This document shows positions 15,531 through 43,318 of a DNA stretch of 64,000 nucleotides, one piece after another; within the stretch, counting starts at the first letter, position 1, and each line of letters starts with the position of its first letter. The notes under the pieces are model-generated. The model did not search any database, was not told the origin of the DNA, and saw nothing but the letters and a program-made list of their open reading frames with translations. Position numbers and translations under genes: made by a program. The DNA lies in the NCBI RefSeq assembly GCF_036507355.1, contig NZ_AP027877.1. One strand, written 5' to 3'. The stretch comes from Escherichia coli (lineage in GTDB: Bacteria > Pseudomonadota > Gammaproteobacteria > Enterobacterales > Enterobacteriaceae).

Positions 15531-17237
15531 CTATTGCCAGTACACCTCAAATATTTCTGTATATCCCTCTCTGTCTGTTTCACCACGCGTCTGTGTGCCA
15601 TCCTCAAAAAAGGCAATATACTGCGTCTCTGAATACGGTATCCCGTCATCGTCCGTAAAATGGAACTGGAGGGTATATTTTTCAGGATCATCTTCATCGT
15701 CACCGCCATCACCTCCTCCGTCACTCCCTGCGGGATTGCCACTATCCTCTCCGGAGTCATCACTGCCATCATCACTGCTCTCATCCTCCGGAGCCTCCAG
15801 CACCGCCGGCTGCATCGTCCCCACCGGTGTCCCCGCACTGCCCCCACCGTTCAGGTTTATCTTCGGCCCGGCAATATCCACTCCGCCCGGCTGAATGACG
15901 ATAAACGAGCCACCCACCTTCAGGCTTATCCGGCTGCTGCTCTCCAGCACGATATCCCCGTCCACTTTTATCCCCAGCGCGCCACTCACCTTCTCCGCCA
16001 GGTCCCCCTTCACCACCAGGCTGTGTTTCCCCTCCACCAGACTGATATGGTTCCCCGTCGTCTTATGCTCCTGCTTCCCTTCCACCGTCACTTTACGGTC
16101 GTTTCTGACGTACAGACCGTCATCGTGACTCACGCTCACCGTCCGGTCATTCGTCACCTTCAGAGTCTGGTCATTACGTACCGTGATACGCCGGTCGTTC
16201 GCCACCGTGATACTCTGGTCGTGGCCCCCCTCTTTTTTTGTACCGACCTGAACCGTCTGACCCTTCACCACCGTTATCTTCTGGTCGTTACCGATGGTTT
16301 CCGTATGGTCATGTTTTACATCCGTTGTCCGGTCGTTGAGCACCTCCGTATCCATGTTCTTCTGCGCATGGATATACACCTGCTCATTACTGGTGGCGTC
16401 TTCAAACCGCAGCTCGTTAAATCCGCTTCCTTTATAGGTTTTTGACCGTATCGTCATCTGCGTCTTCGTTCCCGGCAGGTCGCCCGGGGAGCGGTTGTCC
16501 TCATGGTACGTCCGCCCCATGATTATCGGCTGGTCCGGGTCTCCGTTCAGAAAATCAACAATCACCTCCTGGCCCACCCGCGGTATCGCCAGATTACCGA
16601 ACCCCGGCCCCGCCCACGCCTGCGATACCCGCACCCAGCATGAACTCGCCTCCGTCATCCCGTGATAACGGTCCCAGTGGAACTTCACCCGTACCCGGCC
16701 ATGTTCATCGCAGAAGATTTCCTCTCCCGCAGGCCCGGTGACAATGGCACTCTGCGGCCCGTCCACCTTCGGTTTGCTTTGCAGCCGTGGACGCCACGTC
16801 CGGTCCGCCGGTATCACCTCTAACTGATTTCCCAGCGTGGTTCCTCTCCCTTGGCTGCCGTGCAGCGCCTGCGGCTGGCTTCCTGACAGTATGCTCTGTA
16901 CCACCTGCCATTCACGGTTCAGCATCTTCTGCGGATGCCCCGTCAGCGTAAACCGCGTTCCCGGCCACAGCCTCGGCGAATTACTCTGCCCTGTGGCCTT
17001 TTCCGCATCACTGCGCAGGCTCTCCATCTGGTACAGCGTGAAATCCTTGCCGTGCTGCTCATCCTTGAACCTTCCCGGATAATCAAATATTTCATACTGC
17101 GCCAGCTGTCCGTTCAGGTTCTCACCCTGCTGCTCATACATCCCCGGCCAGTCCGGCACCTTAAACGTGTAATCCTGGCTCTGCACCGACGACGGGCGGA
17201 CATGCGCCTCATACGCTACCGCCCGGGTTTCCGGCAT
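15531..17237 (-). pseudogene. vgrG: vgrG (T6SS spike) lacking the N-terminal ~220 aa and interrupted 33 codons before its stop by IS600-like copy 1
   Basis: 568-aa ORF with gp5-like OB-fold motif (GPAGEEIFCDEHGRVRVKFHWDRY) only ~165 aa from its start, repeated VxxNDR beta-helix segments, DUF2345-like region, acidic Gly/Asp linker and a short C-terminal domain; the last residues EVYWQ are encoded by the IS terminus. Confidence 0.8.
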
Positions 17238-17338: not shown

Positions 17339-17857
17339 TTATGCTTCCAGCGGTGCACGCCAGTCATCGGCACCAGAAGTACCGGATTTGATGTGCTCCC
17401 ACTCAACCTTACGGTATGCCAGTGATACTGCGAGCAATTGCGTAAACTCACGCTGTGCAGGGTCCTGGCAGTGCGGCATGTGCAGGTTCATGTCCACAAT
17501 CGTCGCGTCAGTAAGACGTGTGGTGAAGTAGTGCTCCTGCTTGCCTTCAACTGAAGTACGCCACCAGTGCAGCTCCACTTTCGGCAGCATTTCACCGGAG
17601 GCCAGCGCGTTGTACAGCAGCGGAACGGCTTTGTTCAGCGCCACGGTGAAAATGAACGGTTTGTGCGCGCGCTGCCCGGAAGGTTGACCAGACTGTGGAT
17701 CGGTTGGAACAGTAACGTTATGCAGAAACTCCTGCACCAGCATTTCATCTTCGTGTCCCTGCACGTAGATATTGCCGACAGAATCTGCGGTGAAAGCACC
17801 GGCAGTGATGTTCCCCTGGGTCTGACCTGTAATTGAAATGTAACATGGGGTTGGCAT
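17339..17857 (-). CDS. hcp: Hcp (T6SS inner tube protein, TssD)
   Basis: 172-aa ORF MPTPCYISITGQTQGNITAGAFTADSVGNIYVQGHEDE..., typical Hcp1-family sequence and size. Confidence 0.9.
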   Translation of the reverse strand: MPTPCYISITGQTQGNITAGAFTADSVGNIYVQGHEDEMLVQEFLHNVTVPTDPQSGQPSGQRAHKPFIFTVALNKAVPLLYNALASGEMLPKVELHWWRTSVEGKQEHYFTTRLTDATIVDMNLHMPHCQDPAQREFTQLLAVSLAYRKVEWEHIKSGTSGADDWRAPLEA

Positions 17858-18559
17858 TTATGAACTCCTTGTGAAATTATCAACTGCTGTTTTACGAACA
17901 ACCCGTCGTTAATCCCCGACGGGTTAGAGTGTGATGCGGCTCACATCAGGAACCACACCCTTTTCTTTATTCGAGTTACAGGCACACGTAATTAGCACCT
18001 ACTGAAAAACTCTTTTATGGTGTTTAAATATATTTTTAGTCAATTTCAGAACACGGTCACATAAGCTAAAAATATATCAACTTCAACAGCAGAATTATCC
18101 ATAACGTATCTTCCCCCCCATAAAAATCCACAGCCGCGTCAAAAACAAATTATTACGACACTTACTCCGCCATCGTTCCAGCACGCAATTAAGATATTCC
18201 TTAAAGGAATTCCTTATGATGTATTGCCAGCAATTAATTAATTGATAAAACCATACATAAAACTTATTAATCAATTTAATAAATGCATATAAATCAATAT
18301 ATTATTGTATTTGATTGACCGTAAAATCATATTCATCAAGTCTATAAATACCAAAATCTATTTCACTATAATATATTAGCAAGGAAGAATGCATCTCTTT
18401 CTAAAATATAAATAGTTCTTTTAATATTTTATTTCATGAGTAGAATACTGATCACAACAGAAGGAAGGTTACATTATCTAACTGCCACTGAAACGGTATC
18501 TTCGGTATTTTTATGCAGTACGAAAATGCTGTGCTCATGGTCTGAACGGGAACATTTTT
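17858..18559. promoter_or_regulatory. AT-rich divergent intergenic region between hcp and the tssB stub (probable T6SS promoter region)
   Basis: about 700 bp of very AT-rich non-coding sequence between divergently oriented hcp and tssB starts. Confidence 0.35.
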
Positions 18560-18718
18560 ATGAGCAAAATGAACAACAATGGCGGCAGTGTCGCGCCGAA
18601 AGAAAGAATCAGCGTTCGGTATACACCAAAAGTTGATGGGGTGGCTGCTGATATCGAATTGCCGCTGAATTTATTGATCACCGGCAATCTGAAAGGGAAA
18701 CCAGATAACACGCCGTGA
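18560..18718 (+). pseudogene. tssB: tssB (T6SS sheath small subunit) 5' stub, 52 codons, truncated by an IS3-family element
   Basis: MSKMNNNGGSVAPKERISVRYTPKVDGVAADIELPLNLLITGNLKGKPDNTP matches the conserved TssB/VipA N-terminus; the stop codon TGA is the first three bases of the IS inverted repeat. Confidence 0.65.
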
Positions 18719-18772
18719 ATCGCCACGGGTTTAACAGACACCTCAGAGTCATTTAAGATGGCTTAAAGAGAG

Positions 18773-19057
18773 GTGCCCATGAGCGGTAAGCGTTATCCCG
18801 AAGAGTTTAAAATTGAAGCAGTCAAACAGGTTGTTGATCGCGGTTATTCTGTTGCCAGCGTTGCAACACGTCTCGATATCACCACCCACAGCCTTTACGC
18901 CTGGATAAAGAAGTACGGTCCGGATTCTTCCGCTAATAAAGAACAGTCAGATGCTCAGGCCGAGATCCGCCGTCTCCAGAAAGAGCTGAAGCGGGTTACC
19001 GACGAACGGGACATATTAAAAAAAGCCGCGGCGTACTTCGCAAAGCTGTCCGACTGA
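18773..19057 (+). CDS. IS3-family transposase OrfA
   Basis: 94-aa ORF MPMSGKRYPEEFKIEAVKQVVDRGYSVASVATRL... (HTH plus leucine zipper). Confidence 0.85.
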   Translation: MPMSGKRYPEEFKIEAVKQVVDRGYSVASVATRLDITTHSLYAWIKKYGPDSSANKEQSDAQAEIRRLQKELKRVTDERDILKKAAAYFAKLSD

Positions 19058-19113
19058 GGTACGCCTTTATCCGTGACAACACCTGTTGCTGGCCTGTTCG
19101 CCTGCTCTGTCGG

Positions 19114-19926
19114 GTGCTGGATGTTCATCCCAGTGGTTTTTACGCCTGGCTTCAGCAGCCGCATTCACAACGCCATCAGGCAGACCTGAGGCTGACAGGG
19201 CAGATTAAACAGTTCTGGCTGGAATCGGGATGCGTCTATGGTTATCGCAAAATCCATCTGGATCTGCGGGACAGCGGGCAACAGTGCGGAGTGAACAGAG
19301 TCTGGCGACTGATGAAACGTGTCGGGATAAAGGCTCAGGTCGGATACCGGAGCCCGCGGGCACGTAAAGGCGAGGCCAGTATCGTGTCGCCCAACAGGCT
19401 CCAGCGACAGTTCAATCCGGATGCTCCGGATAAGCGTTGGGTAACGGACATAACCTACATCAGGACCCACGAAGGCTGGCTGTATCTTGCCGTGGTTGTT
19501 GATCTGTTCTCACGCAAAATTATCGGCTGGTCCATGCAATCCCGGATGACAAAGGACATTGTCCTGAACGCACTGCTGATGGCTGTATGGCGCCGTAATC
19601 CCCAAAAACAGGTGCTGGTTCATTCGGATCAGGGCAGTCAGTACACAAGCCATGAGTGGCAGTCGTTCCTGAAATCACACGGCCTGGATGGCAGCATGAG
19701 CCGTCGCGGTAACTGCCATGATAATGCGGTTGCAGAAAGCTTTTTCCAGTTGTTGAAACGCGAACGGATAAAGAAAAAGATCTACGGAACGCGGGAAGAA
19801 GCCCGCAGCGATATTTTTGATTACATCGAAATGTTTTATAACAGTAAGCGTCGGCATGGTTCCAGCGATCAGATGTCACCGACAGAATATGAAAACCAGT
19901 ATTATCAACGGCTCGGAAGTGTCTAG
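19114..19926 (+). CDS. IS3-family transposase OrfB (DDE)
   Basis: 270-aa ORF with DITYIRTHEGWLYLAVVVDLFSRK...HSDQGSQYTS...SRRGNCHDNAVAESFF DDE signature. Confidence 0.85.
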   Translation: MLDVHPSGFYAWLQQPHSQRHQADLRLTGQIKQFWLESGCVYGYRKIHLDLRDSGQQCGVNRVWRLMKRVGIKAQVGYRSPRARKGEASIVSPNRLQRQFNPDAPDKRWVTDITYIRTHEGWLYLAVVVDLFSRKIIGWSMQSRMTKDIVLNALLMAVWRRNPQKQVLVHSDQGSQYTSHEWQSFLKSHGLDGSMSRRGNCHDNAVAESFFQLLKRERIKKKIYGTREEARSDIFDYIEMFYNSKRRHGSSDQMSPTEYENQYYQRLGSV

Positions 19927-20198
19927 ATTATCCGTGGCGATTCAGTTGTCAAGCAGATAGAAGCCATCTAGGTCAGGGGGAATGACTAGGAATTACTCCC
20001 CAAGGGTAGCGTACGTCTACACACATCAAATTACCTCCCGGACAGGGACATAGTAGAAATATTGTGTATTGCAATTATGGATACTGTCATCGTCTAGGTA
20101 GTTCGCCAGCTTTATAGTGTTTTACTGAATTTGGCCACCTGAGCAGAGGTGATATGGGAGAGTGATTTTCATACGCTCTCGTATGGTTTCCGGCCTGA

Positions 20199-20426
20199 AT
20201 GCAGTGTTCATCACGCGATCCGCACGGTGAAATTACAGCTCACAGACTGTGGGGAAACCCGGGGCGCTGGGTGATTGAAGACGACCTGTCCAGTTACTTC
20301 GACACCGTACACCATCGACTGCTGATGAAAGCCGTACGCCGCAGGATCAGTGACGCACGTTTTATGGCCCTCCTGTGGAAAACCATCAAGGCGGGCACAT
20401 CGAGGTCGGTCTCTTTCGGGCGGTAA
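20199..20426 (+). pseudogene. reverse transcriptase fragment (group II intron/retron-type RT, as in K-12 CP4-6 ykfC)
   Basis: translation contains IEDDLSSYFDTVHHRLLMKAVRRRISDARFMALLWKTIKAG, the RT fingers/palm motif context; only about 75 codons. Confidence 0.55.
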
Positions 20427-20439
20427 GTGACGCCGCGCC

Positions 20440-20684
20440 AGCTGACGTTGCCACGAATATTCGCCAATACGCTGCCAGACTTCGGTATGAAAGCGCAGAA
20501 TCAATGACCGGTAATCGGCCATGCTTTCGCGGTACGGCAGCGTCAACGTAAAGCAGAACACCACGAGTCGTGGGTAATGGTCAACGGCCTGTTGCAGAAA
20601 GGCTCGTGTATTTGTCGTGTCAGTCGAATTGCCGGAGACGATGGAGGGAGAATAAGGATTCATAACGGCGCTCTCAATGAACAC
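20440..20684 (-). pseudogene. prophage-remnant protein fragment (possibly inovirus Gp2-like)
   Basis: N-terminal part of minus-strand ORF 20211..20684 (MNPYSPSIVSGNSTDTTNTRAFLQQAVDHYPRL...); the rest of that ORF overlaps the RT fragment on the other strand and is probably read-through. Confidence 0.3.
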
Positions 20685-20888
20685 TGGTGTGATGGACAGG
20701 AGTGTGATGTTGCAGGTGTGCTGCTCATCATCGATCCCATATCATTACGTTCGCTCACTAAGACGGAGTGCCTTTCGTCATTTAACCTGTCACAATCCAA
20801 ATAATTTCAGACAGATATTATCTCCGTGAATCCCCCGCCTCCTTAACCGGAGCGCGGGGATTTTTCTTTTTCACGTTGAGAACTCTGT

Positions 20889-21773
20889 ATGACTAAACCT
20901 CACGGCCTTCAGGCCCTTGAACAACCGCTGGCGTCGCTTCCCGATGCGCTTCGCCAGCTTATTCTTGAACGTATTCAGAATCTCACCCACTATGAGCCGG
21001 TGATTGGTATCATGGGCAAAAGCGGTGCCGGTAAGTCTTCGCTCTGTAACGAACTCTTCCGGGGTGAGGTCTCCCCCGTCAGTGATGTGAACGCCTGTAC
21101 CCGTGAAGTGCTGCGCTTCCGGCTGCGCAGCGGGCGTCACAGTCTGGTGATTGTTGATTTACCGGGTGTGGGAGAAAACGGGCAACGGGACCATGAATAC
21201 CGTGCCCTGTACCGGCGTATGCTGCCGGAACTGGACCTGGTTCTGTGGGTCATTAAGTCCGATGACCGGGCGCTGTCGGTGGACGAGCAGTTCTGGCGCG
21301 GTGTGATGCAGCCTTACCAGCAGCAGGTGGTGTTCGTGATTAACCAGGCCGACAAAATAGAACCCAGCCATGAATGGGATACCCGTTCTGGTACTCCCTC
21401 AGCACAGCAACAGAAAAATCTTCAGGAAAAGCAGGTTGCCATTACCACGATGTTTAAGCCACATCACCCGGTCTGCGTGGTATCCGCATGTACCGGATGG
21501 GGCGTGGAGGATATGGTAGCAACCATGATGCGCTGTCTGCCGGACCGCGCCACCAGCCCAGTAGCGACACAGTTGCACGGGAGGCTCTGCACGGAGCCGG
21601 TAAAGTCGCAGGCCCGTGACGGCTTCGGTGAGGCGGTGGGGCGGTGGGGCGGGTGTTCGATACGGCAGAATCATCGTTATTCCTGCCTGCGCCGCTGAAG
21701 ACGGTGATACGTACCGTGCGTGATGCTGTGGTGTCTGTAGCCCGCGCGGTCTGGGACTGGATCTTCTTCTGAA
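20889..21773 (+). pseudogene. YeeP/YkfA/YfjP-like prophage GTPase with a probable 3' frameshift
   Basis: Walker A GKSGAGKSS, G3 DLPG and NQADK G4 motifs; the ORF ends at 21698 but a plausible conserved C-terminus (...TVIRTVRDAVVSVARAVWDWIFF) continues in another frame to about 21773. Confidence 0.65.
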
Positions 21774-22032
21774 TGAGTAAAAGGTCATCAGGACTGTAGT
21801 GAATGACTCTGTTTATTCACCGCCTGGTAGATGATTATTTCCAGGCAGACATAACCTGTCCTGACCAGCAAAAGATACCACCAGTCATAAGCGCGTCACC
21901 ACTGCCGACGTTGCATCCACACAGTCTTCTTGCACCAGGCGTTTCGCTACGTATGACGGACACAACCTGTCAGTCCCATCCTTTACAGTAATACCTTCTT
22001 TATTAATCAATTACCCAACACGGAGATAATAC

Positions 22033-22736
22033 ATGTCTCAGGCTGAGCGTCGTTATGACCGCCTGTCTGTCCGGCTTTCTCTAATTATCAGCCGTCTGCT
22101 CGCGGGTGAAACGCTGAATATGCGCAAACTGGCCGCTGAGTTTGGCATCTCGGAGCGTACCCTACATCGTGATTTCCGCGAGCGTCTGATTTATCTCGAC
22201 CTCGAATATCAGGATGGCTGCTGCCGTCTGCTGACCGGAGGCCGTCAGGAGATTCGGGAGGAGGCCGCAATGCAGTTTGCCCGTCAGTCAGGCACTGGCG
22301 CGTTGTTTCCTGATATGGACCACCATCTGGTCAATTCATTGCTGAGCAGCAAGGACTCCTCGCCATGTCTTATCTGGCATCCGTAACGTCTTCCCGCCCA
22401 GGCATCTTCACACGACTGGTCAGGGCGGTATCAGAAAACAGGAAGGTAACCCTGCTGGCTGACGGATGCCGTTGCGACAACCTTGCCCCCTACCGACTGA
22501 TTTTCAGCACCGGTGGGTGGTTTCTGGTGGGGGAACACCTTGCCCGGATAACCGTTTTTGCACTGCACACAGTTCACTCCGTGACGTTTCACGCGGAAAC
22601 CTTCACACCAGACGGACATTTCACCCGCATTCTGTCACACCCGGATTTTTTACAGGCGTTACCTCATTTTCATGTTTTTCATTCACTACTCGCTGACGGC
22701 AGTTACGGGCAGCTTACCCATAAGGAACAGGCATGA
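22033..22736 (+). pseudogene. YfjR-like HTH/WYL transcriptional regulator, split into two overlapping ORFs (22033..22386 and 22365..22736)
   Basis: N-terminal HTH ([21 protein letters not shown]) in ORF 1; ORF 2 in a different frame carries a WYL-like segment (GGWFLVGEH); combined length about 235 aa fits a single regulator. Confidence 0.45.
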
Positions 22737-23368
22737 AATTACTCACCTCGGCGGCGCTGGCCGCCAGCCTCTGCATTACCTCTGTGACCCCGGCCATCGC
22801 AGAAAATATCGTGGGTTCAGTTAAGGCCTGGCAGTACATGCAGGCTGATGGCTGGAAATCCGCTGATGGATACGATGATAACCGCATGCATAACGAGTTA
22901 TACCAGGCGGTCGTTCTTGATAATTATCCCTGGACGAATCACTTTCTGCTTCGTAGCAGAGGCGGTAGTTCGCTTTATCTGGCAGACAAGAAAGCTAAAA
23001 CTGTCAAATACATCGATATAAAACCTCGCGACGAGTATCCGTTACATCTTCAGGTTGTTTATCGGGGAATTGATGACGGGAGTGGCTGTTATTTCGCCAT
23101 TGTAGATGACCGAATGGCAAACTACTGGACGATTGTTGAAGATCGTCTTCTCTATCAGGACCCACCTGTTGAAGACGTCGATGCGAAAGCAGCTGAGCTT
23201 AGAAAACAACTCACGCCGGAAGTCGTGATGATGGTGAAGGATAATTGTATTGACAAACAGCAGCAGGCTGCACTGGCAGCTAAGCGTTCTGAAAAAGATC
23301 GAGAGTTGCAACAGTGGGTGGCGAAACAGAGCCTGGCGGAATTATGTCGTCGTACCGGCAACTGCTGA
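22733..23368 (+). CDS. hypothetical secreted protein (CP4-like remnant)
   Basis: 211-aa ORF with signal peptide MKLLTSAALAASLCITSVTPAIA; start overlaps the preceding stop. Confidence 0.5.
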   Translation: MKLLTSAALAASLCITSVTPAIAENIVGSVKAWQYMQADGWKSADGYDDNRMHNELYQAVVLDNYPWTNHFLLRSRGGSSLYLADKKAKTVKYIDIKPRDEYPLHLQVVYRGIDDGSGCYFAIVDDRMANYWTIVEDRLLYQDPPVEDVDAKAAELRKQLTPEVVMMVKDNCIDKQQQAALAAKRSEKDRELQQWVAKQSLAELCRRTGNC

Positions 23369-23403
23369 CCCGCTGAAAACAACCATAACAGGGAGTTTTT
23401 AAC

Positions 23404-23856
23404 ATGAATATATTTACTACGCGTCTGACGACCTCTCTGGTGGTCATCGGCACTCTGCTGCTCTCCGGCTGCGACAGCAAGGAAGATGCAGGCGTGAAGA
23501 CGATTGCCCGATTTAAGGACCTGACTCCGCCGCCCTTCAGCGACGTGGTGGCGCATAAATCCGATATCGAGCAGGAATGGGTAAAAAAGGATGCCTTCGG
23601 CACACCGCTATACACGGTAATGAAAACTCGCCAGTCGCCGGAAGGCTGTGAGTCCGGCAGTTATTACTACATTGCTGATATGCAGCAGAAAACGGTGCAG
23701 CCGCTGATAGCCGCCCTGTGTCTCGCGGACAATATTACTCTGAGCTTCCGGATCGAGACCGACAGCTACACGGGTGAGAAATCGGTGGTGTATTCGCACG
23801 ATGGCAAGGAAATGGGGAAACTCTTGCTGCCGGATAACCAGGAGAACCATCCATGA
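23404..23856 (+). CDS. hypothetical lipoprotein (YfjS-like position)
   Basis: 150-aa ORF with lipobox LLLSGC. Confidence 0.5.
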   Translation: MNIFTTRLTTSLVVIGTLLLSGCDSKEDAGVKTIARFKDLTPPPFSDVVAHKSDIEQEWVKKDAFGTPLYTVMKTRQSPEGCESGSYYYIADMQQKTVQPLIAALCLADNITLSFRIETDSYTGEKSVVYSHDGKEMGKLLLPDNQENHP

Positions 23857-24305
23857 AGAAGCTGAAAGGTGTTATCTCTGCTGCAGTCCTGAGTCTGTAT
23901 TTGCTGACACCGGCCCATGCTGATGGCGGTTTTCAGGGTGCCATCAAAGGCGGCATTCCGGCCTACACCCGCGATGTAAAACACAACAACCCCTTCTGGT
24001 GTAACCAGTACAAACTGGTGAGAAAGATGTGTGAAGTGGTTTCGCAATCGGAAAATGGGCGCGTTGCCATTGTCAGAATGGTCCCCACCGACTGGAAATG
24101 CCCCAACGGTATCTGGGGTGTGGTTGACCGTTCTAATGGTGACGCCATGGAGTTGGTCCCGACGGCGAAAATGTCCCTGGAGCAGTACTGCAGCAAGGCA
24201 TTCAGTGCAGGTTTTGTCAAACCACAGAACAGGAAATCACTGGCCGACGTCGTGATGTACTACAACGGCAAGCCAGTCGGTTCTTTCGAATACATTGAAG
24301 AGTGA
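23853..24305 (+). CDS. hypothetical secreted protein (YfjT-like position)
   Basis: 150-aa ORF with signal peptide MKKLKGVISAAVLSLYLLTPAHA; overlaps the previous stop (operon-like). Confidence 0.5.
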   Translation: MKKLKGVISAAVLSLYLLTPAHADGGFQGAIKGGIPAYTRDVKHNNPFWCNQYKLVRKMCEVVSQSENGRVAIVRMVPTDWKCPNGIWGVVDRSNGDAMELVPTAKMSLEQYCSKAFSAGFVKPQNRKSLADVVMYYNGKPVGSFEYIEE

Positions 24306-24367
24306 ACTCCCCGCCTCAGGGAGAAGCTTCCCGTATTCATTTAACACATTAAAAATAAAGGAAAAGA

Positions 24368-24910
24368 ATGAACTGGCATTATGAGAAAAATGGCGTGCGT
24401 CACGACAATGTGACCGAAGCCGACATAACCGAACGTATTCAGCGCGGGGAGCTGAATGCCTCAACGCTGGTATGGCAACAGGGCATGACGGAATGGCAGC
24501 CGCTGTCAGCCACGCCGCTGGCAGATGTCCTGAAACAATGTGCGGTTCCCCCCGCGCTGCCCGGCAATCGTATCCCCGGAAGCATGGTCTGGACGCTGGC
24601 CTTTGCGCCCCTGATTGGGTATGCCCTGGAGATGTGGACGGCCGGGCTGAGCGGAATGGAATTTGAAGAGGCGTATGCCGCCGTGACGGAGGGGCAATAC
24701 TGGTTTATCACACTGATACTGAATATTGCGCTGGGGTATCTGGATGAACGACGGCTCCGTAAATCCGGCGTTGATACCGCCGCCTTTGGCTGGCTGGCCT
24801 GGCTGGTTCCGTTTTATCTGTGGCGTCGGGCAAAAGCCCTCGGACAGAAACCGGCTTACTTCTGGGTCTGGCTGGTCACGCTGACAGTGACAGTCCTGGG
24901 CGCAGGATAA
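24368..24910 (+). CDS. hypothetical membrane protein with N-terminal GYF-like/DUF4339-like segment
   Basis: 180-aa ORF; NGVRHDNVTEADITERIQRGELNASTLVWQQGMTEWQPL followed by hydrophobic helices. Confidence 0.45.
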   Translation: MNWHYEKNGVRHDNVTEADITERIQRGELNASTLVWQQGMTEWQPLSATPLADVLKQCAVPPALPGNRIPGSMVWTLAFAPLIGYALEMWTAGLSGMEFEEAYAAVTEGQYWFITLILNIALGYLDERRLRKSGVDTAAFGWLAWLVPFYLWRRAKALGQKPAYFWVWLVTLTVTVLGAG

Positions 24911-24969
24911 CCGGCATCAGCGCTGTCCGGCCCGGATGAGCAGGCAAGTTAAATCAAGGAACAATATCA

Positions 24970-25800
24970 ATGAACAACATGCTGAAAAGTGTTATTTCCG
25001 CTGCGACCCTGAGTCTGTGTCTGCTGACACCCGCTCATGCAGAAGAGCAACGTTATATCAGTATTCCCAGCGTCTTCGGGGAAGGTAAGCACGTGTCCCG
25101 TTCAGACCATTACAGCTACATACCGACCATTACCCTGCTGGAGAACCTGCAGCGTGAAGGATTCCAGCCGTTCTTTGCCTGCCAGACCCGCGTCAGGGAC
25201 CAGAGCCGCCGTGAGCATACGAAACATATGCTGCGCCTGCGTCGCTCCGGGCAGATAACCGGTCAGCAGGTGCCGGAAATTATCCTGCTCAATTCGCATG
25301 ACGGTTCGTCCAGTTACCAGATGTTGCCGGGGTATTTCCGTGCCATCTGTACCAACGGTCTCGTCTGCGGGCAGTCATTTGGCGAGGTGCGAGTGCCACA
25401 CCGGGGAAATGTCGTGGAGAAAGTGATTGAAGGCGCTTACGAAGTCCTCGGTGTGTTCGACCGGGTGGAAGAGAAGCGTGATGCGATGCAGTCGCTTTTA
25501 CTCCCGCCACCGGCACAACAGGCTTTTGCCAGAGCCGCGCTGACGTACCGCTTCGGGGAAGAGCACCAGCCGGTGACGGAAGCGCAGATACTGACACCCC
25601 GCCGCTATGAAGACCGTCAGGATGACCTGTGGTCAGTTTTTAATCGGTGCCAGGAGAACCTGCTCAAAGGGGGGCTGCCAGGACGTACTGCCAAAGGCAA
25701 ACGCAGCCATACCCGCGCGGTGAAAGGCATCGACGGCGACGTTAAGCTCAACCGGGCACTCTGGGTGATGGCGGAAAAACTGCAGCAGGCGCTGAGCTGA
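24970..25800 (+). CDS. DUF932-like prophage protein carrying an N-terminal signal peptide
   Basis: 276-aa ORF; signal peptide MNNMLKSVISAATLSLCLLTPAHA homologous to that of ORF 23853; body contains YIPTITLLENLQREGFQPFFACQTR; family assignment from memory. Confidence 0.45.
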   Translation: MNNMLKSVISAATLSLCLLTPAHAEEQRYISIPSVFGEGKHVSRSDHYSYIPTITLLENLQREGFQPFFACQTRVRDQSRREHTKHMLRLRRSGQITGQQVPEIILLNSHDGSSSYQMLPGYFRAICTNGLVCGQSFGEVRVPHRGNVVEKVIEGAYEVLGVFDRVEEKRDAMQSLLLPPPAQQAFARAALTYRFGEEHQPVTEAQILTPRRYEDRQDDLWSVFNRCQENLLKGGLPGRTAKGKRSHTRAVKGIDGDVKLNRALWVMAEKLQQALS

Positions 25801-29862: not shown

Positions 29863-29939
29863 TGGCGGAACGGACGGGACTCGAACCCGCGACCCCCTGC
29901 GTGACAGGCAGGTATTCTAACCGACTGAACTACCGCTCC
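29863..29939 (-). tRNA. aspV: tRNA-Asp (GUC)
   Basis: reverse complement GGAGCGGTAGTTCAGTCGGTTAGAATACCTGCCTGTCACGCAGGGGGTCGCGGGTTCGAGTCCCGTCCGTTCCGCCA; identical to the copy at 38087..38163. Confidence 0.95.
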
Positions 29940-38086: not shown

Positions 38087-38163
38087 TGGCGGAACGGACG
38101 GGACTCGAACCCGCGACCCCCTGCGTGACAGGCAGGTATTCTAACCGACTGAACTACCGCTCC
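38087..38163 (-). tRNA. aspU: tRNA-Asp (GUC), distal gene of the rrnH operon
   Basis: identical to aspV; follows the 5S rRNA. Confidence 0.95.
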
Positions 38164-38215
38164 ACCGAATTCTTTTACAACCACCGGTTTTATGACCGGC
38201 TTACTGCTTAATTTG

Positions 38216-38335
38216 ATGCCTGGCAGTTCCCTACTCTCGCATGGGGAGACCCCACACTACCATCGGCGCTACGGCGTTTCACTTCTGAGTTCGGCATGGG
38301 GTCAGGTGGGACCACCGCGCTACGGCCGCCAGGCA
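38216..38335 (-). rRNA. rrfH: 5S ribosomal RNA
   Basis: reverse complement TGCCTGGCGGCCGTAGCGCGGTGG...GGGAACTGCCAGGCAT, 120 nt. Confidence 0.95.
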
Positions 38336-38427
38336 AATTCTGTTTTATCAGACCGCTTCTGCGTTCTGATTTAATCTGTATCAGGCTGAAAATCTTCTCT
38401 CATCCGCCAAAACAGCTTCGGCGTTGT

Positions 38428-41330
<2,903 letters not shown>

Positions 41331-41513
41331 TCACAACCCGAAGATGTTTCTTTCGATTCATCATCGTGTTGCGAAAATTTGAGAGACTCACGAACAACTC
41401 TCGTTGTTCAGTGTTTCAATTTTCAGCTTGATCCAGATTTTTAAAGAGCAAAACTTCGCAGTGAACCTTTGCAGGTACACTCTGAAGTATTTTTTATTTA
41501 ATCACTACAGAGA

Positions 41514-41589
41514 TGGTGGAGCTATGCGGGATCGAACCGCAGACCTCCTGCGTGCAAAGCAGGCGCTCTCCCAGCTGAGCTATAGCCCC
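41514..41589 (-). tRNA. alaV: tRNA-Ala (UGC), spacer tRNA
   Basis: reverse complement GGGGCTATAGCTCAGCTGGGAGAGCGCCTGCTTTGCACGCAGGAGGTCTGCGGTTCGATCCCGCATAGCTCCACCA. Confidence 0.95.
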
Positions 41590-41631
41590 ATAACATGTAG
41601 TTAAAACCTCTTCAAATTTGCGGTGCAAATT

Positions 41632-41708
<77 letters not shown>

Positions 41709-41776
41709 GTAGAGGTTTTACTGCTCATTTTCATCAGACAATCTGTGTGAGCACTACAAAGAACGCTTCTTTAAGG

Positions 41777-43318
<1,542 letters not shown>

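What the first reader, a model, noticed from the sequence alone, without database searches (positions are those of the whole stretch)
20199..20426. Reverse-transcriptase motif fragment next to the IS
An RT fingers/palm-type segment (DLSSYFDTVHHRLLMKAVRRRISD) survives as a 75-codon fragment, flanked by the IS3-family element. It is most likely a dead group II intron or retron RT as seen in K-12 CP4-6, but it marks that a retroelement once sat here.
Basis: partly seen in the sequence, partly recalled or inferred. Interest (0 to 1): 0.3.

Follow-up and report, generated by a model that had tools for sequence, protein, structure and literature searches.

The report
Dead group II intron RT fragment
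This is a 280-base, twice-frameshifted leftover of the reverse-transcriptase gene of an E.c.I4-type group II intron in an E. coli genomic island; it is non-functional, and public annotation already labels it this way.

Summary
The RT-derived DNA is window 20151-20430. It is 92.6% identical to nt 348-629 (codons 116-210 of 502) of the intact ltrA gene of the E.c.I4 group II intron, and to K-12 ykfC. The repaired peptide hits TIGR04416 (group II intron RT/maturase) at E=2.8e-22, and its best solved relative is LtrA. It is therefore group II, not retron. No other part of the intron survives: no ribozyme domains, no YADD, no maturase domain, and no Rfam hit. On the left the relic abuts a 44-bp IS911-like left end through a 6-bp GATATG microhomology. 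On the right it abuts a truncated DUF3296/inovirus-Gp2 gene on the other strand. Substitutions against E.c.I4 are 13 synonymous to 4 non-synonymous (dN/dS about 0.08). The relic therefore comes from a once-functional sister lineage of E.c.I4, and I found no intact copy of that lineage. The same composite is 100% identical in about 33 of 5,426 complete E. coli genomes, where PGAP already calls it a frameshifted, incomplete group II intron RT. It is ordinary and of low interest.

The parts
20151..20430 (+). Relic of a group II intron RT gene (ltrA). It corresponds to ltrA nt 348-629, LtrA residues about 117-210, and intron nt 1019-1300 of 2271. It covers the end of RT motif 2 (SYGFRP), motif 2a, motif 3 (DLSSYFD) and the segment before motif 4.
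   Evidence: blastn and alignment to L002 3495-3776 and L003 5995-6276, 92.6% identity with 2 gaps. tblastn with LtrA finds residues 115-213 in three frames. TIGR04416 E=2.8e-22.
20264..20265 (+). Frameshift 1: a 1-bp deletion (GGGGACGC to GGGGCGC) in codon 154.
   Evidence: Alignments. The sequence is identical in more than 30 other genomes, so this is not a sequencing error.
20395..20396 (+). Frameshift 2: a 1-bp deletion (GGGACAT to GGGCAC) in codon 198.
20199..20426 (+). It is a mechanical ORF that is in the RT frame only between the two frameshifts (about residues 23-66).
   Evidence: One genome annotates it as a 'hypothetical protein' (P0134). It gives no Pfam hit on its own.
20113..20156 (+). 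IS911-like left terminal segment (IRL and adjacent bases). It is joined to the RT relic through a shared GATATG (20151-20156). The rest of this IS is deleted.
   Evidence: 39/41 identical to the left end of the K-12 IS911 copy that carries ykfC (L003 2995-3035). Homology of the upstream spacer to strain 81 stops at about 20112 (H107).
19945..20112 (.). Island spacer. In strain 720632 it lies next to an HTH gene and a helicase/DUF4391/type III R-M module. It is not intron-derived.
18716..19944 (+). Intact IS3-family insertion sequence (orfA 18773-19057, orfB 19114-19926, terminal inverted repeats TGAATCGCCACGG). It has no target-site duplication. It contains an unoccupied E.c.I4 homing site at 19459/19460.
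   Evidence: Pfam HTH_Tnp_1 and rve. IRs read. The same IS in E. coli C is split by a full-length E.c.I4 exactly after window 19459.
20431..20684 (-). N-terminal relic (about 85 codons) of a DUF3296 / inovirus-type Gp2 (YagK/YfjJ-family) gene. It forms the right-hand junction of the RT relic. The mechanical ORF 20211-20684 runs on antisense through the RT relic.
   Evidence: 62 homologues, with PF27752/PF11726 and source names 'DUF3296 domain-containing protein' and 'inovirus-type Gp2 protein'.
20889..21698 (+). YkfA/YfjP/YeeP-type GTPase gene, the first gene of the conserved CP4-like island arm. It is context, not part of the retroelement.
   Evidence: Pfam MMR_HSR1 5.7e-16. PGAP calls it 'GTPase family protein'. 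It is frameshifted near its 3' end in the window compared with L001.

Best explanation
Window 20151-20430 is an inert internal fragment (12%) of an E.c.I4-type, bacterial class A group II intron. It holds only codons about 117-210 of the intron-encoded RT/maturase, broken by two 1-bp deletions.

The most likely history has four steps:
1. An IS911-like IS3-family element inserted into a CP4-like genomic island between the cargo module and the GTPase gene.
2. An E.c.I4-like intron sat in that IS. This family retrohomes into the DxTY-coding site of IS3-family transposase genes.
3. One deletion joined IS911 nt about 44 to ltrA nt 348 at a GATATG microhomology. It removed the IS body and ribozyme domains I-IV.
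4. A second deletion removed everything from ltrA nt about 625 onward: RT motifs 4-7, the maturase domain, domains V/VI, the IS 3' part and the 3' part of a neighbouring DUF3296 gene.

The steps that are shown are the relic's identity, extent, frameshifts and junction sequences, and the absence of all other intron parts. The order and mechanism of the deletions are inferred, as is the claim that the intron once sat in this IS911 copy. The relic does nothing today. It cannot encode an RT (no YADD, no maturase domain) and has no ribozyme.

The intron it came from was a functional sister lineage of present-day E.c.I4 (dS about 0.25, dN/dS about 0.08), not a decayed copy of the common E.c.I4.
For: - **DNA identity.** The relic is 92.6% identical over 282 columns to intact ltrA on pDA33137-178 and to K-12 ykfC. 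2,240 E. coli genomes hold a match covering at least 80% of the 274-bp query. Nearly all of these lie in the 90-95% identity band and are annotated ltrA, ykfC or RT-domain protein.
- **Protein family.** TIGR04416 group_II_RT_mat scores E=2.8e-22 on profile positions 89-172. The top solved-structure hits are LtrA, GsI-IIC RT and other group II RTs.
- **The intact relative.** It has RVT_1 (residues 86-332), GIIM (356-421) and an Rfam Intron_gpII hit immediately after ltrA.
- **Nothing else in the window.** There is no Rfam hit at E<=1 in 17800-23000 and no intron family at gathering score anywhere in the window. blastn and tblastn with the whole intron find only this piece.
- **Missing motifs.** YADD is at residues 277-280 and motif 4 at 213-222, both outside the relic.
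- **Left junction.** The IS911-like end and the GATATG overlap are shown.
- **Right junction.** It meets the DUF3296 fragment.
- **Naming and homing.** E.c.I4 homing into IS3-family ISs and the naming of ykfC as E.c.I4-tr1 come from PMC3522654. An independent example is E. coli C.
- **Substitution pattern.** 13 synonymous to 4 non-synonymous changes, P=4.7e-6 against neutrality.
- **Public annotation.** PGAP labels it 'group II intron reverse transcriptase/maturase; frameshifted; incomplete'.
Against: Nothing contradicts the identification, but several limits apply.
- The history is inferred. The homing site and both intron ends are deleted, so it cannot be shown that the intron was inserted in this particular IS911 copy.
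- The IS911-like piece is only 44 bp and has a degenerate tip.
- The right junction is fuzzy over 20424-20430.
- The Pfam RVT_1 hit for the repaired fragment (25.2 bits) is below the gathering score (29.6), and the TIGR04416 score is far below its full-length cutoff. Both are expected for a 93-codon fragment.
- The dN/dS estimate rests on 17 substitutions.
Confidence: 0.95

Rival explanations
1. It is a relic of a retron reverse transcriptase, the first reader's alternative, with a lost or hidden msr/msd.
For: Depositors and JGI often label such proteins 'retron-type reverse transcriptase'. K-12 ykfC was historically described that way.
Against: The best family is TIGR04416, group II intron RT/maturase. 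The relic is 92.6% identical in DNA to genes that carry a GIIM maturase domain and are followed by a group II domain V/VI RNA. No retron RT model is among the PADLOC hits of the fragment. There are no ncRNA hits nearby. The literature names the family E.c.I4.
Confidence: 0.01
2. The fragment is a live, co-opted element: a small protein from the 75-codon ORF, a chimeric antisense protein (ORF 20211-20684), or a domesticated defence RT module in a defence-rich island.
For: The composite is 100% conserved in about 33 genomes. It sits next to a type III R-M/helicase module in strain 720632. Both ORFs have been called by gene finders (P0134; P0001). There are weak PADLOC DRT hits.
Against: The 100% identity reflects recent common descent of an island, not selection. 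The ORF changes between RT and non-RT frames at two deletions. There is no YADD or motif 4-7, so no polymerase activity is possible. No Shine-Dalgarno sequence is visible upstream of the ATG at 20199 (sequence). The PADLOC DRT hits are weaker than the generic group II-like RT hits and are expected for any RT fingers/palm segment.
Confidence: 0.02
3. The relic is an old copy of the common E.c.I4 that diverged 7% by neutral decay after inactivation at this site, rather than a piece of a distinct, once-functional lineage.
For: The two frameshifts show that some decay has occurred. Four amino-acid changes are present.
Against: 13 of 17 substitutions are synonymous, whereas 23% are expected under neutrality (P=4.7e-6). 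All copies of the relic are 99-100% identical to one another, which argues against a long residence with neutral drift.
Confidence: 0.05

Closest known systems
E.c.I4 group II intron (bacterial class A; Zimmerly database name; Leclercq & Cordaux 2012, PMC3522654), for example the intact copy on pDA33137-178 (L002 2477-4747) and in E. coli C (L006)
   Same: 92.6% nucleotide identity over ltrA nt 348-629, and 88/93 amino acids identical after repair. It is associated with an IS3-family (IS911-like) element, the known homing target. By that paper's 10% divergence rule it would still be named E.c.I4.
   Different: Only 280 of 2271 nt remain. It has two frameshifts, no ribozyme, no catalytic YADD and no maturase domain. 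About 7% divergence, mostly synonymous, separates it from every intact copy found (best 92.9% in 72,556 plasmids; none closer in 5,426 E. coli genomes).
K-12 ykfC (E.c.I4-tr1, CP4-6 prophage)
   Same: It is also a dead E.c.I4-type fragment in a CP4-like island, near a YkfA-type GTPase gene and next to IS911 sequence. It is 92.6% identical in the shared segment.
   Different: ykfC is a 1764-bp 5' fragment (ribozyme domains I-III plus about 364 RT codons). It is 99% identical to modern E.c.I4, still sits at its homing site in IS911, and is cut by IS5. The window relic is an internal 280-bp piece of a different lineage, in the opposite orientation relative to the GTPase gene. The two are therefore independent, not orthologous.
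Ll.LtrB LtrA (PDB 5g2x) and other structurally solved group II intron RTs
   Same: The repaired peptide aligns to LtrA residues 121-201, the fingers/palm region with motifs 2-3 (E=2.3e-11).
   Different: The relationship is distant (about 40% identity), and the relic covers only one-sixth of such a protein.

Membership tests
Group II intron-encoded RT/maturase (TIGR04416; Pfam RVT_1 + GIIM) | Sequence similarity to the RT fingers/palm region (motifs 2-3) | tested here: met
   TIGR04416 E=2.8e-22, profile 89-172/353. RVT_1 E=1.6e-5, below the gathering score. LtrA 5g2x E=2.3e-11.
Group II intron-encoded RT/maturase (TIGR04416; Pfam RVT_1 + GIIM) | Complete RT domain with catalytic YADD (motif 5) and motifs 0-1 and 4-7 | tested here: not met
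   The relic covers only LtrA residues about 117-210. YADD lies at 277-280 and motif 4 at 213-222 in the intact relative.
Group II intron-encoded RT/maturase (TIGR04416; Pfam RVT_1 + GIIM) | Maturase (X / GIIM) domain | tested here: not met
   GIIM lies at residues 356-421 of the intact protein. tblastn finds nothing beyond residue 213 in the window.
Functional group II intron (ribozyme plus ORF) | Ribozyme domains: 5' GUGYG/domain I-IV upstream and domain V/VI downstream of the ORF | tested here: not met
   No Rfam hit at E<=1 in 17800-23000 and none at gathering score in the whole window. Positive control: Intron_gpII scores 64.9 bits right after ltrA in L002. blastn with the full intron finds only 20151-20430.
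E.c.I4 lineage (class A; homes into IS3-family transposase genes) | No more than 10% nucleotide divergence from the reference intron (naming rule of PMC3522654) | tested here: met
   92.6% identity to intact copies and to E.c.I4-tr1 (ykfC).
E.c.I4 lineage (class A; homes into IS3-family transposase genes) | Insertion at the specific DxTY-coding site of an IS3-family transposase gene | tested here: inconclusive
   An IS911-like left end abuts the relic, but the homing site and both intron ends are deleted. For comparison, intact sites are seen in L002, L003 and L006.
Retron | Retron-clade RT with adjacent msr/msd non-coding RNA | tested here: not met
   The best protein families and structures are group II. 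No retron RT model is among the PADLOC hits of the fragment. No structured-RNA hit lies nearby, although Rfam's coverage of retron ncRNAs is limited.
Defence-associated RTs (DRT/UG, Abi) | Full-length RT of a UG/DRT clade with an intact active site | tested here: not met
   There are only weak DRT hits (E 1e-7 and worse), against 2.2e-18 for the generic group II-like RT model. The active site is absent and there are two frameshifts.

The most novel reading that the evidence does not exclude
The relic is the only surviving trace of an E.c.I4 sister lineage. That lineage evolved under purifying selection (dS about 0.25 from E.c.I4) and now has no intact representative in sequenced Enterobacteria. 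It would be a small fossil record of the acquisition-then-extinction dynamics proposed for group II introns in Enterobacteriales.
Probability: 0.4. Interest if true: 0.15.

Novelty: already known. Interest (0 to 1): 0.07.

Why it matters
It matters little. The relic is a marker of past mobile-element traffic in a CP4-like island, showing an IS911-like insertion, intron carriage and two deletions. It is also one more data point for the view that group II introns in E. coli are acquired on mobile DNA and lost by fragmentation rather than persisting.

In practice, the 75-codon ORF and the 157-codon antisense ORF should not be annotated as proteins. The shared composite can serve as a lineage marker for this island variant, which occurs in about 33 of 5,426 complete E. 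coli genomes.

Tried and rejected
- **Rfam around the relic and window-wide.** No intron, retron or other structured RNA lies near the relic.
- **Species-representative genomes.** Two exact scans of 100,044 species-representative genomes, using 27-nt and 22-nt strings that carry the relic-specific substitutions, found 0 matches. No intact copy of the variant lineage turned up. Exact-match scans are strict, so this is weak negative evidence.
- **The search for homologous proteins with the repaired peptide.** It returned only short proteins (160 aa or less) at 92% identity or less over the full query. It did not help locate a full-length closer relative.
- **Plasmid collection.** The best match was 92.9%, no closer than E.c.I4.
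- **Unrepaired 75-aa ORF against Pfam.** No hit.
- **DUF3296 fragment against Pfam and NCBIfam.** No hit. It was identified only through homologues.
- **E.c.I4 homing-site string in the window, with up to 12 substitutions.** No hit. The empty site in the neighbouring IS was found by comparison with E. coli C instead.
- **Considered and rejected.** The ideas that the relic is orthologous to K-12 ykfC, a retron, a defence RT, or an artefact of sequencing errors. On the last point, the frameshifts are identical in more than 30 independent assemblies.

Full report
**1. Observation**

ORF 20199-20426 (75 codons) exists and contains DLSSYFDTVHHRLLMKAVRRRISD at nt 20283-20354. Translating all three forward frames shows RT-like sequence in each of them. 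Frame 1 reads ...IWESDFHTLSYGFRPECSVHHAIRTVKLQLTDCGETRG. Frame 3 reads RWVIEDDLSSYFDTVHHRLLMKAVRRRISDARFMALLWKTIKAG. Frame 2 reads HIEVGLFRA.

**2. Extent and identity**

By blastn, window 20151-20430 is 92.6% identical (282 columns, 2 gaps) to two sequences. One is nt 348-629 of an intact 502-codon ltrA on plasmid pDA33137-178 (L002 3495-3776). The other is K-12 ykfC (L003 5995-6276). The two gaps are 1-bp deletions at window 20264/20265 and 20395/20396, in codons 154 and 198.

The repaired 93-residue peptide gives these hits:
- TIGR04416 (group II intron RT/maturase): E=2.8e-22.
- Pfam RVT_1: E=1.6e-5, which is below the gathering score, as expected for a fragment.
- Solved structures: LtrA (5g2x, residues 121-201, E=2.3e-11), followed by other group II intron RTs.
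- PADLOC: generic group II-like RT models and only weak DRT hits, with no retron model listed.

The intact relative has RVT_1 (residues 86-332), GIIM (356-421) and an Rfam Intron_gpII (domain V/VI) hit immediately 3' of ltrA. Its intron spans L002 2477-4747, which is 2271 nt.

Leclercq & Cordaux 2012 (PMC3522654) name this family E.c.I4 and assign it to class A. They state that it homes into IS3-like transposase genes (IS629, IS911, ISEc16, ISEc31). They list the K-12 fragment in CP4-6 as E.c.I4-tr1, 1764 bp.

**3. What is missing**

- Rfam at E<=1 over 17800-23000 gives no hit, and the whole window at gathering score gives only rRNA, tRNA and two sRNAs.
- blastn with the whole intron plus its IS exons, and tblastn with full LtrA, find only this one piece in the 64 kb.
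- The relic equals intron nt 1019-1300 and LtrA residues about 117-210.
- RT motifs 0-1, motif 4 (213-222), YADD (277-280), motifs 6-7, the maturase domain and all ribozyme domains are absent.

The relic cannot encode an RT or form a ribozyme.

**4. Junctions**

On the left, 20113-20156 matches the left end of the K-12 IS911 copy (39/41 over 20116-20156; the tip is degenerate). It overlaps the RT homology by GATATG at 20151-20156. This is a microhomology junction between IS911 nt about 39-44 and ltrA nt 348-353. Upstream of that, 19945-20112 is island spacer shared with strains 720632 and 81.

On the right, RT homology ends at 20424-20430. From 20431 to 20684 the minus strand encodes the first 85 or so codons of a DUF3296/inovirus-Gp2 (YagK/YfjJ-type) protein. 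The segment 20778-20871 is the widespread leader of the YkfA/YfjP-type GTPase gene, found in 4,247 genomes.

**5. Inferred history**

The inferred sequence is as follows. An IS911-like IS inserted at about 20113. It carried, or received, an E.c.I4-like intron. Two deletions then left the IS tip and 280 bp of ltrA and truncated the neighbouring DUF3296 gene. The junction sequences are shown by the data. The order of events, and the claim that the intron lay in this IS copy, are inferred.

**6. Lineage**

Excluding the junction codon, 17 substitutions separate the relic from E.c.I4. Thirteen are synonymous and four are not (R133C, G160D, T189A, D201E). This gives dS 0.25, dN 0.02 and dN/dS 0.08. 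The probability of at least 13 of 17 being synonymous under neutrality is 4.7e-6. Most of the divergence therefore accrued while the RT was functional, so the relic derives from a sister lineage of today's E.c.I4.

No closer intact copy was found:
- In E. coli genomes, matches are either at least 99% (the relic itself) or about 92%.
- The best plasmid match is 92.9%.
- Two exact k-mer scans of species-representative genomes gave nothing.

**7. Distribution and annotation**

The composite 19932/19945-20890 is 99.9-100% identical in 33 of 5,426 complete E. coli genomes. PGAP annotates it as 'group II intron reverse transcriptase/maturase; frameshifted; incomplete'.

The left flank varies between strains:
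- Strain 720632 has a type III R-M/DUF4391/helicase/HTH module.
- JCC-EE 7 has a sil/cop region, IS1 and an inverted IS fragment.
- The window has an intact IS3-family IS (18716-19944) that truncates a T6SS tssB gene.

No complete genome in the collection shows the window's exact T6SS-IS-relic arrangement.

**8. Relation to K-12 ykfC**

The two are the same kind of object but independent. ykfC is 99% identical to modern E.c.I4, retains the intron 5' end at its IS911 homing site, and is cut by IS5. It points the other way relative to the GTPase gene.

**9. Verdict**

The feature is ordinary, non-functional and already annotated in public records. Its only mildly interesting aspect is that it looks like a fossil of an unsampled or extinct E.c.I4 sister lineage.

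Noticed in passing
window 18716-19944 (site at 19459/19460): The intact IS3-family IS next to the relic is the same IS (99.4-100% identical) that in E. coli C is interrupted by IS30 (after 19028/19029) and by a full-length E.c.I4 intron (after 19459). The window copy therefore carries an empty E.c.I4 homing site (...GACATAACCTACA|TCAGG) only 700 bp from the dead intron fragment.
   Followed up: partly
window 18560-18718 and 18713-18715 / 19945-19947: The IS has no target-site duplication (CCG on the left, GTT on the right). It truncates a T6SS tssB/VipA gene at codon 52 (Pfam T6SS_VipA 1.2e-7), with hcp (17339-17857) and vgrG (15531-17237) beyond. This suggests an IS-mediated deletion or rearrangement that fused a T6SS cluster to the CP4-like island. 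No complete E. coli genome in the collection has this exact junction.
   Followed up: partly
window 21500-25064 (GTPase 20889-21698; WYL regulator 22033-22386 + 22365-22736): Against strain JCC-EE 7 this stretch shows 18 gap positions but only 3 mismatches. The GTPase gene is frameshifted near its 3' end (269 aa against 291 aa) and the HTH-WYL regulator is split into two ORFs. These are either real pseudogenisation or homopolymer-type assembly errors in the window genome.
   Followed up: partly
window 20211-20684 (minus strand): This 157-codon mechanical ORF fuses the DUF3296 N-terminal relic to the antisense of the RT relic. A 150-aa version has been predicted as a protein in ENA assemblies (P0001, 55 member sequences). 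Nearly all DUF3296 homologues returned were short or labelled 'partial', so this gene may be commonly truncated upstream of the GTPase gene in related islands. Alternatively, the search tool may favour hits of similar length.
   Followed up: no
L001 5700-6013 (strain JCC-EE 7): In this strain the sequence next to the spacer is the left 314 bp of the same IS3-family IS in inverted orientation. It ends exactly at the position where IS30 is inserted in E. coli C. This hints at IS30- or IS-mediated inversion and deletion in the history of the locus.
   Followed up: no
window 20838-20870: A GC-rich hairpin followed by a T-run (aatcccccgcc...ggagcgcggggattttt) lies in the widely conserved leader (20778-20871, in 4,247 genomes) just upstream of the GTPase gene start. 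It is terminator-like, and its function was not examined.
   Followed up: no
window 29863-29939 and 38087-43318: Chromosomal context: a tRNA-Asp at 29863-29939 lies close to where the compared part of the island's toxin-antitoxin arm ends (about 29.1 kb). An rrn operon (16S, tRNA-Ile, tRNA-Ala, 23S, 5S, tRNA-Asp) lies at 38-43 kb. This layout is typical of the aspV/rrnH region of E. coli.
   Followed up: no
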